64,000 nucleotides of DNA from an uncultured archaeon. GTDB lineage: Archaea; Thermoproteota; Nitrososphaeria_A; Caldarchaeales; Wolframiiraptoraceae. The notes beneath the pieces are model-generated. The model was given only the letters and a program-made list of their open reading frames with translations, was not told the DNA's origin and searched no databases. The translations under genes were made by a program, and so were the position numbers. Positions 23,544 through 31,962 of this stretch are shown piece by piece (position 1 is the first letter of the stretch; every line of letters begins with the position of its first letter). Location: assembly GCA_938083505.1 (NCBI GenBank), contig CALKCF010000004.1, positions 64,001-128,000 on the forward strand, read 5' to 3'.

Positions 23544-23636
23544 GCCGGGGTGCCCTAGCCCGGTAGGTCTGCCGAAGGGGCCGGTCTGCTAAACCGGTGG
23601 CCTATGGCCGCGCGGGTTCAAATCCCGCCCCCGGCG
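23544..23636 (+). tRNA. tRNA-Ser(GCT) with putative 10-nt D-loop intron (23567-23576)
   Basis: Acceptor GCCGGGG/CCCCGGC, anticodon stem CCGGT/ACCGG with GCT at 23588-90, long variable arm TGGCC-TAT-GGCCG, T arm GCGGG-TTCAAAT-CCCGC, G73. Confidence 0.93.
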
Positions 23637-23665
23637 CCTCGGTAAGTCTCAAAAAGTTACCTGCG

Positions 23666-31817: not shown

Positions 31818-31858
31818 ATGCAAAAAATTCAATAAGCCCTATGTTGTATAAATATACT

Positions 31859-31880
31859 GGCCGGGGTAAAAGGCCGGGGT
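31859..31880 (+). repeat. 9-bp direct repeat GGCCGGGGT duplicating the tRNA-Cys 5' acceptor strand
   Basis: Copies at 31859-31867 and 31872-31880, separated by AAAA. Confidence 0.85.
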
Positions 31881-31962
31881 TGGCGAAAAGCCACCGAAGG
31901 CCGAGCAGCTAGGCGGCGGCCTGCAGAGCCGCTCCACTCGGGTGCAAATCCCGACCCCGGCT
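31873..31962 (+). tRNA. tRNA-Cys(GCA) with putative 18-nt intron at position 8/9 (31881-31898)
   Basis: Acceptor GCCGGGG/CCCCGGC, D stem GCC/GGC, anticodon stem GCGGC/GCCGC with GCA at 31923-25, T arm TCGGG-TGCAAAT-CCCGA, U73 discriminator typical of Cys. Confidence 0.88.

What the first reader, a model, noticed from the sequence alone, without database searches (positions are those of the whole stretch)
31872..31962. tRNA-Cys(GCA) with an apparent intron at position 8/9, just after the acceptor strand
Seen in sequence: 18 extra nt (TGGCGAAAAGCCACCGAA, 31881-98) between T8 and G9. It folds as a bulge-helix-bulge: outer helix GGC/GCC using the -1 G, central CGGG/ACCG with one G-A mismatch, bulges GUU and AAG, inner helix GGC/GCC. 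Cutting after the second base of each bulge restores GCCGGGG-TG-GCC exactly. I do not recall 8/9 among the commonly reported non-canonical archaeal intron sites. The BHB is mutually exclusive with the acceptor and D stems. The D loop also reads AG where GG (18/19) is expected.
Basis: partly seen in the sequence, partly recalled or inferred. Interest (0 to 1): 0.7.

Follow-up and report, generated by a model that had tools for sequence, protein, structure and literature searches.

The report
tRNA-Cys intron with spare acceptor strand
This is the genome's only cysteine tRNA gene, interrupted right after its first eight bases by a small archaeal-type intron, and it starts with a conserved spare copy of those first bases that probably holds the tRNA's 3' end while the intron is cut out, a helper I found described in no paper.

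Summary
Window 31873-31962 is a tRNA-Cys(GCA) gene with an 18-nt insert (31881-31898) between U8 and G9. Removing it gives a normal cloverleaf. The result differs at one variable-loop base from the uninterrupted tRNA-Cys gene of a same-genus genome. The insert and its flanks fit the archaeal bulge-helix-bulge splice motif, with one G.A in the central helix. No other tRNA-Cys gene was found in the 98.5%-complete genome. CysRS, two EndA genes, RtcB and RNase P RNA are present.

All 7 tRNA-Cys genes with this intron in the 76-genome class carry it, and no intronless one does. All 6 tRNA-His genes with a 9/10 intron have the same arrangement. In tRNA-Cys the copy is invariant while its flanks have diverged.

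My reading is that the spare strand pairs with the 3' acceptor strand, so the real strand can form the splice hairpin and the short 5' exon stays tethered. RNase P then removes the leader. Splicing, the transcript start and the helper role are inferred, because no RNA data were available.

Other notes of this scan report the same element on other DNA (Asgard, DPANN, another hot-spring archaeon). I found no paper describing it.

The parts
31829..31838 (+). Promoter-like box TCAATAAGCC. It is the best match to the AT-rich box found upstream of this genome's tRNA genes.
   Evidence: A weight matrix built from 34 tRNA upstream regions scores it 7.5. It starts 44 nt before the real G1 and 31 nt before the G1 of the spare copy. 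TTCAATAAGCC is kept in four of the five intron-bearing genus members and as CTCAATAGCTT in the fifth, while the next 19 nt have diverged. Its promoter function and the transcript start are inferred.
31859..31867 (+). Spare (decoy) copy of the 5' acceptor strand, GGCCGGGGT. It matches G(-1), positions 1-7 and T8 of the real gene.
   Evidence: It is an exact direct repeat of 31872-80. GCCGGGG is invariant in all 7 intron-bearing tRNA-Cys genes of two families. No intronless tRNA-Cys gene in the 76 genomes has it. It pairs 8/8 with 31955-62. In the minimum-energy folds and the RNAalifold consensus it pairs with the 3' strand.
31868..31871 (+). Spacer AAAA between the spare and the real strand.
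   Evidence: Its length and sequence vary among relatives: AAA, TAG, GAA, CAA, TAAAA.
31872..31872 (+). G(-1), the last leader base. It closes the outer helix of the splice hairpin by pairing with C12.
   Evidence: G is present at -1 in all 7 intron-bearing genes.
31873..31880 (+). Exon 1: tRNA positions 1-8 (GCCGGGG + U8).
31881..31898 (+). An 18-nt BHB-type intron between U8 and G9: T GGC GAAAA GCC ACCG AA.
   Evidence: It is absent from the G001 ortholog. Motif geometry is and the shuffle test. Only its loop varies (A/G) within the genus. The inner helix of the related intron shows one compensatory change between G040 and G051.
31899..31962 (+). Exon 2: tRNA positions 9-73. It includes the D arm (A18 G19), anticodon arm, T arm (T54 G55 C56) and discriminator U73.
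   Evidence: Rfam tRNA match 31899-31954. ARAGORN cloverleaf of the spliced sequence. Among the five intron-bearing genus members it varies only at two adjacent variable-loop bases.
31923..31925 (+). Anticodon GCA (Cys).
31955..31962 (+). 3' acceptor strand CCCCGGC plus U73. It is the proposed partner of the spare strand in the precursor and of the real strand in the mature tRNA.

Best explanation
Window 31873-31962 is the genome's single, functional tRNA-Cys(GCA) gene. An 18-nt endonuclease-type (BHB) intron, 31881-98, splits it between U8 and G9. In the precursor, the real 5' acceptor strand cannot sit in the acceptor stem because it is needed to build the splice signal. G(-1)G1C2 pair with D-stem bases G10-C12 (outer helix). 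C3-G6 pair with the 3' part of the intron (central helix, with one G.A). The intron closes on itself (inner helix). This leaves two 3-nt bulges, G7-U8|U and A-A|G9, which the two-subunit splicing endonuclease cuts. RtcB then joins U8 to G9.

A spare copy of the acceptor strand (31859-67) lies at the predicted start of the transcript. During this stage it pairs with the 3' acceptor strand. This keeps the strong real acceptor stem from forming, so the splice hairpin can form. It gives the precursor a four-armed shape. It also keeps the 22-nt 5' piece attached by about 8 more base pairs after cutting. After ligation the real strand replaces the spare one, and RNase P removes the 13-nt leader.

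Shown here: the sequence and motif geometry, the match of the spliced product to an intronless ortholog, the strict association and conservation of the spare strand, and the presence of the enzymes. Inferred: splicing in vivo, the transcript start, the pairing role of the spare strand, and the order of steps. My confidence in the intron is about 0.9 and in the helper role about 0.55-0.6.
For: Intron:
- The borders and BHB geometry hold, and shuffled inserts match in only 0.03% of trials.
- The spliced sequence is called tRNA-Cys by ARAGORN.
- It differs at one variable-loop base from the uninterrupted G001 gene.
- The same site carries a 23-nt intron with a perfect central helix in G040 and G051, with a compensatory C-G to U-A change in the inner helix.
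- Among the five intron-bearing genus members, the exons vary only at two adjacent variable-loop bases.
- No other tRNA-Cys gene was found in the 98.5%-complete genome.
- CysRS, two EndA paralogs, RtcB and RNase P RNA are present. One EndA paralog is closest to the tRNA-splicing endonuclease chains 3p1z_B, 3ajv_B and 2zyz_B, which I recall to be the catalytic subunits of crenarchaeal heterotetramers.
- (alpha-beta)2 endonucleases accept relaxed motifs (PMC3239211).

Spare strand:
- In G000, only tRNA-Cys and tRNA-His among 44 T-arm-anchored tRNAs have a duplicated 5' strand. They are also the two with introns at 8/9 and 9/10.
- In the 76-genome class, 7/7 intron-bearing Cys genes and 6/6 intron-bearing His genes carry it.
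- No Cys gene has a copy without the intron.
- In Cys it is invariant, while only 2 of the 19 nt upstream are invariant and the spacer varies.
- Where the His intron was lost (G004), the copy has a G-to-A change.
- In G035 the copy, GCCGCAG, is fully Watson-Crick to the 3' strand CTGCGGC, whereas the real strand makes a G.U pair.
- In folding models the spare strand takes the 3' strand in the minimum-energy structure. At 37 C its pairing probability is about 1; at 75 C it is 0.5 for G000 Cys and at least 0.9 for the other three genes. For Cys the outer and inner splice helices form with probability about 1 at 37 C. Without the spare strand the real acceptor stem dominates (probability 0.76-1.0), and the outer splice helix forms with probability 0-0.2.
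- tRNA-Asp of G005 has a 5/6 intron with a canonical motif and an upstream copy. The five members without a 5' intron have no copy.
Against: - Nearest-neighbour folding prefers a slipped register of the Cys hairpin (-16.3 kcal/mol) over the canonical BHB register (-10.3 kcal/mol). In this genus the central helix has a G.A.
- Covariation cannot separate the two registers, because nearly all pairs never vary.
- For tRNA-His the splice helices are not predicted by folding, with or without the spare strand.
- After in-silico splicing the model still pairs the spare strand, not the real one, with the 3' end. Secondary-structure energy therefore does not explain the hand-over to the native fold.
- The promoter-box positions of this genome's tRNA genes scatter from -59 to -11. 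The transcript start at the spare strand is therefore only a plausible inference.
- tRNA-Asp of G006 has an upstream copy of positions 1-13 although its 15/16 intron does not use the acceptor strand. Such copies may therefore arise as footprints of intron gain.
- The independent lineages are few: about 5-6 events, all in one class.
Confidence: 0.68

Rival explanations
1. The intron is real, but the upstream copy is only a footprint of how the intron arrived. It would come from a duplication or recombination that left the old 5' end of the gene in front of a new, intron-bearing 5' end. It would play no part in processing.
For: Sugahara et al. 2012 (PMC3293823) describe a 5' fragment of tRNA-Thr lying upstream of an intron-bearing tRNA-Thr gene as a direct repeat in Ca. 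Caldiarchaeum subterraneum. They read it as the border of an integrated element. In G006, tRNA-Asp has an upstream copy of positions 1-13 next to a species-specific 15/16 intron whose splice motif does not need the acceptor strand. In G035 the copy, not the real strand, is the perfect complement of the 3' strand, as an ancestral 5' end would be. The spare copy sits where a 5' end is usually found relative to the promoter box.
Against: In tRNA-Cys the 7 bases are invariant in five species of one genus and two species of another family, while adjacent non-coding bases are nearly randomised. A neutral footprint should have decayed. In the His lineage that lost the intron, the copy carries a substitution, and the intronless G001 Cys gene has no copy. 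Only 4 nt, not an element, lie between the copies, and the neighbours are a radical-SAM gene and a glycosyltransferase gene. In G005 tRNA-Asp the real start lies 46 nt from the promoter box, as in G000 (my count on the sequences), so the copy lies within an equally long leader with no net insertion. Origin as a footprint and later retention for function are compatible.
Confidence: 0.2
2. The upstream copy (31860-67) is the true exon 1, and the intron is 31 nt long (31868-98), containing the second copy.
For: In G000 and G003 the upstream copy is followed by T, so joining 31867 to 31899 would give the same mature sequence. The same central and outer helices could form with the upstream copy, because the copies are identical.
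Against: In 5 of the 7 genes the base after the upstream copy is A, G or C, which would put a non-U at the near-universal U8. In tRNA-His the upstream copy is followed by TT, which would give U9 where the intronless orthologs have G9. No inner helix adjoins the bulge in this reading. The minimum-energy folds pair the upstream copy with the 3' strand instead.
Confidence: 0.05
3. The gene is a decaying pseudogene, or the 18 nt stay in the RNA as an expansion and no splicing takes place.
For: tRNA finders miss the gene. The D and T loops lack the usual G18 and U55. The central helix has a mismatch.
Against: It is the only tRNA-Cys candidate although CysRS is present. The exons are conserved across species, and the insert keeps its helices. 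The unspliced RNA cannot form both an acceptor stem and a D arm. A18/G55 is shared by the intronless tRNA-Cys genes of a whole family, so it is a lineage trait and not decay.
Confidence: 0.03

Closest known systems
[quoted passage not shown] 2007, 2008; reviewed by Yoshihisa 2014, PMC4090602), including the 3/4 intron of some Thermoproteales
   Same: It is a short intron whose ends lie in two 3-nt bulges around a 4-bp helix built from exon and intron bases. It is cut by EndA and joined by RtcB. It occurs in a lineage with a two-subunit EndA and many interrupted tRNA genes.
   Different: The site 8/9, at the acceptor/D junction, is not among the positions the review names: 3/4, 20/21, 22/23, 25/26, 29/30, 30/31, 45/46, 53/54, 56/57, 59/60, 'etc.'. 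The motif uses a leader base and the whole 5' acceptor strand. The gene carries a conserved spare strand that these papers, as far as I could read them, do not mention. I could not read the full position catalogues (Sugahara 2008, SPLITSdb, GtRNAdb), so 8/9 may be listed there. [quoted passage not shown]
Split and tri-split tRNA genes (Nanoarchaeum equitans, Caldivirga maquilingensis), whose extra leader or trailer sequences pair to bring the pieces together and form the BHB (PMC4090602, PMC4033280)
   Same: Sequence that is absent from the mature tRNA pairs in the precursor, so the splice motif can form and the exons are held together.
   Different: In split genes the helper sequences act between two transcripts, pair with each other, and are removed by EndA itself. 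Here the helper is in cis, is a copy of an exon strand, pairs with a mature part of the tRNA, and must be removed by RNase P after a strand exchange.
tRNA-Thr(GGU) 5' fragment upstream of an intron-bearing tRNA-Thr gene in Ca. Caldiarchaeum subterraneum (Sugahara et al. 2012, PMC3293823)
   Same: A direct repeat of the 5' part of a tRNA lies upstream of a gene whose 5' part carries a non-canonical intron. If the scan's taxon label is right, that organism belongs to the same group of archaea.
   Different: In that case a 1.9-kb insertion with a recombinase gene separates the copies, and the repeat is read as an integration border. Here 1-8 nt separate them, no mobile gene is near, and the copy is conserved across species.

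Membership tests
Archaeal EndA-dependent (BHB) tRNA intron | Two 3-nt bulges on opposite strands, separated by a 4-bp helix and flanked by helices (hBHBh' or a relaxed form) | tested here: met
   Outer helix 3/3, central helix 3/4 (G.A next to the 5' bulge), bulges GUU and AAG, inner helix 3 bp. The central helix is a perfect 4/4 in G040 and G051. The canonical register is not the minimum-energy one.
Archaeal EndA-dependent (BHB) tRNA intron | Cutting after the second base of each bulge and joining gives a tRNA with a regular cloverleaf | tested here: met
   ARAGORN calls tRNA-Cys(gca) on the joined sequence. It differs at one base from the uninterrupted ortholog of G001.
Archaeal EndA-dependent (BHB) tRNA intron | Splicing endonuclease and RNA ligase encoded in the genome | tested here: met
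   Two PF01974 genes (103.7 and 59 bits). The first is closest to PDB chains 3p1z_B, 3ajv_B and 2zyz_B and the second is divergent. RtcB scores 577.9 bits.
Archaeal EndA-dependent (BHB) tRNA intron | The intron is excised and the exons are ligated in the cell | not testable with these tools
   This needs tRNA-seq, RT-PCR or an in vitro assay.
tRNA-Cys | Anticodon GCA and discriminator U73 (the main CysRS identity elements, from general knowledge) | tested here: met
   GCA at 31923-25 and T at 31962. CysRS is present.
tRNA-Cys | Universal elbow bases G18 G19 and T54 Psi55 C56 | tested here: not met
   The gene has A18 G19 and T54 G55 C56. The 12 relatives with A18 all have G55, and the 12 with G18 all have T55. 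This is a lineage-wide paired change, not decay.
Integration footprint (direct repeats of a tRNA part flanking a mobile element) | A mobile element or recombinase gene lies between or next to the repeats | tested here: not met
   Four nt lie between the copies. The neighbours are a radical-SAM gene and a glycosyltransferase gene. The radical-SAM neighbour is kept in five genus members.
Leader-borne spare acceptor strand (proposed helper; no published family) | A copy of the 5' acceptor strand lies just upstream, complementary to the 3' strand, and is present only with an intron that uses the real 5' strand | tested here: met
   13/13 intron-bearing Cys and His genes have it. No Cys gene has a copy without the intron. 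The single His exception has lost its intron and carries a mutated copy. G005 Asp with a 5/6 intron has a copy. G006 Asp has a copy with a 15/16 intron that does not use the acceptor strand.
Leader-borne spare acceptor strand (proposed helper; no published family) | The copy is transcribed and pairs with the 3' strand in the precursor | not testable with these tools
   Only promoter spacing and folding models bear on this.

The most novel reading that the evidence does not exclude
Spare strands in the discarded leader (or trailer) may be a general cis-acting splicing helper of archaeal tRNA genes that has not been described. On this reading, a copy of whichever end strand the splice motif sequesters holds the opposite strand. 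This makes introns within about ten bases of a tRNA end spliceable and keeps the tiny end exon tethered. The copies may arise together with the intron, and selection keeps them only where the motif uses the acceptor strand.
Probability: 0.45. Interest if true: 0.75.

Novelty: new variant of a known kind. Interest (0 to 1): 0.62.

Why it matters
Archaeal tRNA introns are thought to be tolerated wherever a BHB motif can form. An intron next to the acceptor stem poses a folding conflict, because the motif and the strongest helix of the tRNA need the same strand. This gene suggests how the conflict is solved in cis. A disposable second copy of that strand would act as a placeholder and tether and would later be removed by RNase P.

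If this holds, three things follow:
- It adds a new kind of functional element to pre-tRNA leaders.
- It explains why end-proximal introns are rare, and it predicts where they can occur.
- It gives gene finders a signature for tRNA genes they now miss. ARAGORN and Rfam both miss the only tRNA-Cys gene of this genome.

It also offers a simple testable system, one transcript plus three enzymes, for a programmed RNA strand exchange.

Tried and rejected
- RNA evidence: the look-up of sequencing runs listed no RNA holder. There was only one DNA run holding the stretch (labelled marine metagenome, probably the source) and its study mates.
- The metagenome-contig scan gave 8 stretches. Only one was a tRNA gene, and it was identical to the G004 type.
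- The look-up of encoding contigs for the neighbouring radical-SAM protein gave no named record. The genus name Ca. Terraquivivens comes only from earlier notes of this scan and is unverified.
- An RF00005 scan of five other genomes, meant to list truncated matches, cut off its 44 weakest rows, which were the ones I needed.
- I looked for tRNA-His in the sister genus of G035 to learn the ancestral acceptor strand and found none.
- The ARAGORN 'tRNA-Cys' call at C5:11942-12032 was rejected. Read with a canonical 37/38 intron, it is tRNA-Gly(CCC).
- A weight-matrix search for promoters was too noisy to fix transcript starts.
- Covariation counts could not separate the canonical from the slipped hairpin register.
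- Papers: Marck and Grosjean 2003 and Sugahara 2007 are not held, and Sugahara 2008 is cited without a PMC id. The tRNAscan-SE 2.0 supplements list no intron positions. Text searches for introns at positions 8/9 or 9/10, or for leader copies of the acceptor strand, found nothing relevant.
- A phylum sample of 301 genomes showed tRNA-His alignments truncated at position 10/11 only in this genus.

Full report
**1. What is there**

The window is G000:C4:64001-128000 of a 1.15-Mb, 10-contig, 98.5%-complete genome. At 31872-31962 the sequence reads as follows:
- G(-1)
- GCCGGGG (positions 1-7)
- T8
- 18 extra bases, TGGCGAAAAGCCACCGAA (31881-98)
- G9, a D arm, an anticodon arm with CTGCAGA, a 5-nt variable loop and a T arm
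- CCCCGGC and T73

ARAGORN and Rfam at gathering score do not report it. At the E-value threshold, Rfam's tRNA model matches only 31899-31954, model positions 9-63, at 24.8 bits. With 31881-98 removed, ARAGORN calls tRNA-Cys(gca) with a regular cloverleaf.

**2. Is it an intron at 8/9?**

The best evidence is comparative.
- Four other genomes of the genus (G003-G006) carry the same 18 nt, differing only by A/G in its loop.
- A sixth genus member, G001, has an uninterrupted gene, GCCGGGGTGGCCGAG....
- The G000 exons joined at 31880|31899 differ from the G001 gene at one variable-loop base.
- Shifting the junction one base either way changes the joined sequence (read).

That junction is what the archaeal rule predicts, namely a cut after the second base of each 3-nt bulge. 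The motif has an outer helix G(-1)G1C2/G10C11C12, a central helix C3G4G5G6/ACCG (three pairs plus a G.A), bulges G7U8|U and AA|G9, and an inner helix GGC/GCC. Only 0.03% of shuffled inserts fit as well.

In another family, G040 and G051 have a 23-nt intron at the same site. Its central helix (CGGG/CCCG) is perfect and its inner helix has 6 bp, with a C-G to U-A double change between the two genomes.

The machinery is present:
- two EndA-family genes, one closest to the tRNA-splicing endonuclease chains 3p1z_B, 3ajv_B and 2zyz_B, which I recall to be the catalytic subunits of crenarchaeal heterotetramers
- RtcB
- RNase P RNA

Two-subunit endonucleases accept relaxed motifs (PMC3239211).

**3. 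Is the gene needed?**

CysRS is encoded. A T-arm-anchored scan, a scan for GCA anticodon arms and a scan allowing a canonical intron all find only this locus. ARAGORN's 'tRNA-Cys' on contig 5 reads as tRNA-Gly(CCC) with a 37/38 intron. Among the five intron-bearing species, the exons vary only at two adjacent variable-loop bases.

**4.

Four bases upstream lies an exact second copy of GGCCGGGGT, at 31859-67. In G000 only two of 44 T-arm-anchored tRNAs have a duplicated 5' acceptor strand. They are this gene and tRNA-His (C2:162613-162718). tRNA-His has a 21-nt intron that the intronless orthologs place at 9/10.

Across the 76 genomes of the class:
- The Cys intron occurs in 7 genomes (genus g1 and genus g11).
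- The His intron occurs in 6 genomes (g1 and g10).
- All 13 of these genes have the upstream copy with the same BHB layout.
- A pattern that allowed an intron of zero length found no intronless Cys gene with a copy.

In the Cys alignment the 7 copied bases are invariant. Only 2 of the 19 bases between the promoter box and the copy are invariant, and the spacer varies in length and sequence. In G004, which has lost the His intron precisely, the copy carries a G-to-A change. G001, which has an intronless Cys gene in a different gene neighbourhood, has no copy. In G035 the copy (GCCGCAG) is fully complementary to the 3' strand CTGCGGC, while the real strand makes a G.U pair.

**5. How it probably works**

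- Folding the Cys precursor from the spare copy to U73 pairs the spare copy with the 3' strand. The splice hairpin forms where the D arm would be (RNAalifold consensus).
- Folding from G(-1) gives the ordinary acceptor stem, and the outer splice helix has probability 0-0.2.
- For tRNA-His the spare copy likewise captures the 3' strand, but the model does not predict the BHB helices in either case.

I therefore read the copy as a placeholder that frees the real strand. I also read it as a tether. After cutting, the 5' piece would otherwise be held to the 3' exon by the 3-bp outer helix alone.

The conserved box TCAATAAGCC starts 31 nt before the copy. With the usual archaeal TATA-to-start spacing (general knowledge), this puts the transcript start at about the first base of the copy. 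However, box positions in this genome scatter widely. After ligation the real strand must displace the copy, and RNase P must remove the 13-nt leader. The folding model does not favour that exchange, so it would depend on tertiary contacts or on capture by RNase P. These steps are inferred.

**6. Weak points**

- The canonical BHB register is 6 kcal/mol worse than a slipped register.
- The single variable position of the central helix favours the slipped register in g1 and the canonical register in g11. Only the canonical register explains the junction.
- Independent events are few.
- No RNA data exist.

**7. Origin of the copy**

tRNA-Asp gives a natural comparison within the genus.
- All seven members have a 68/69 intron.
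- G005 has an extra 18-nt intron at 5/6. It has a canonical motif using leader base -1, and an uninterrupted GCCCTGG lies 8 nt upstream.
- G006 has an extra 30-nt intron at 15/16, with a copy of positions 1-13 lying 15 nt upstream.
- The five members without a 5' intron have no copy within 140 nt.

The G006 intron does not use the acceptor strand. Copies may therefore arise with the intron, much as in the repeat described for Ca. Caldiarchaeum subterraneum (PMC3293823), and be kept only where they help. The g1 tRNA-Cys (acceptor GCCGGGG, A18/G55) resembles that of family f4 more than that of its own family. This hints that the gene was transferred or replaced together with its intron and copy. 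That is an inference.

**8. Novelty**

The review PMC4090602 names ten non-canonical positions plus 'etc.', and 8/9 is not among them. tRNAscan-SE 2.0 does search flanks for introns near the ends. [quoted passage not shown] The position alone is therefore rare rather than new.

I found no paper describing a leader copy of the acceptor strand, although key catalogues were not readable.

Earlier notes of this scan report the same element in this genome and on other DNA, namely Asgard tRNA-His at 8/9, a DPANN tRNA-Arg and another hot-spring archaeon. I reached the idea before reading them. I count them as leads, not as support.

**9. Verdict**

This is a real, essential tRNA-Cys gene with a BHB intron at 8/9 (confidence about 0.9). 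A conserved leader-borne spare acceptor strand most likely assists its splicing (about 0.55-0.6). It is a new variant of a known kind.

Noticed in passing
G000:C2:162604-162744, minus strand (L062:1511-1615): tRNA-His(GTG) has a 21-nt intron at 9/10 and a tandem upstream copy GGCCGCGGT of G(-1) plus the acceptor strand. The central helix has the same G.A as in tRNA-Cys. Five of seven genus members and G035 of another family share this layout. G004 has lost the intron precisely and has a mutated copy.
   Followed up: yes
G000:C2:145629-145799, minus strand (L256): tRNA-Asp(GTC) has a 29-nt BHB intron at 68/69 inside the 3' acceptor strand, and CCA is encoded. All seven genus members keep a trailer element TTTGAACCCGGG just after a T run. 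This element repeats the T-stem 3' strand that the splice motif sequesters. The intronless orthologs of other genera that I inspected lack it.
   Followed up: partly
L261 (G005) and L262 (G006), tRNA-Asp loci: The same tRNA-Asp gene has species-specific extra introns: 18 nt at 5/6 in G005 and 30 nt at 15/16 in G006. Each comes with an upstream copy of the gene's 5' end (positions 1-7 and positions 1-13). The G006 copy has G9, as in family f4. These may be footprints of recent intron gain.
   Followed up: partly
window 31907-31908 and 31943-31945: The tRNA-Cys elbow reads A18 G19 and T54 G55 C56. Among 24 relatives, the 12 with A18 all have G55 and the 12 with G18 all have T55. This is a paired change of the near-universal G18-Psi55 contact, shared by genus g1 and family f4.
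   Followed up: partly
window 23558-23638: ARAGORN calls tRNA-Ser(GCT) here, but Rfam's tRNA model matches only 23571-23636, below its cut-off (26.7 bits). The acceptor strand lies further upstream, so the gene probably has a non-canonical insert in the D-arm region.
   Followed up: no
G000:C5:11942-12032, minus strand (L025): ARAGORN's intron mode labels this gene tRNA-Cys(gca). Read with a canonical 37/38 intron of 14 nt, it is tRNA-Gly(CCC). Automatic annotation could therefore report a false tRNA-Cys gene and miss the true one.
   Followed up: yes
window 31845-31857: A second TATA-like stretch, GTATAAATATAC, lies just before the spare strand in G000 only. It is not conserved in the other four species. 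If used, it would start transcription inside the real acceptor strand.
   Followed up: no
L036 (G001): The intronless tRNA-Cys gene of G001 is not next to the radical-SAM gene that flanks the gene in the five intron-bearing species. The intron loss may have come with a relocation or replacement of the gene.
   Followed up: partly
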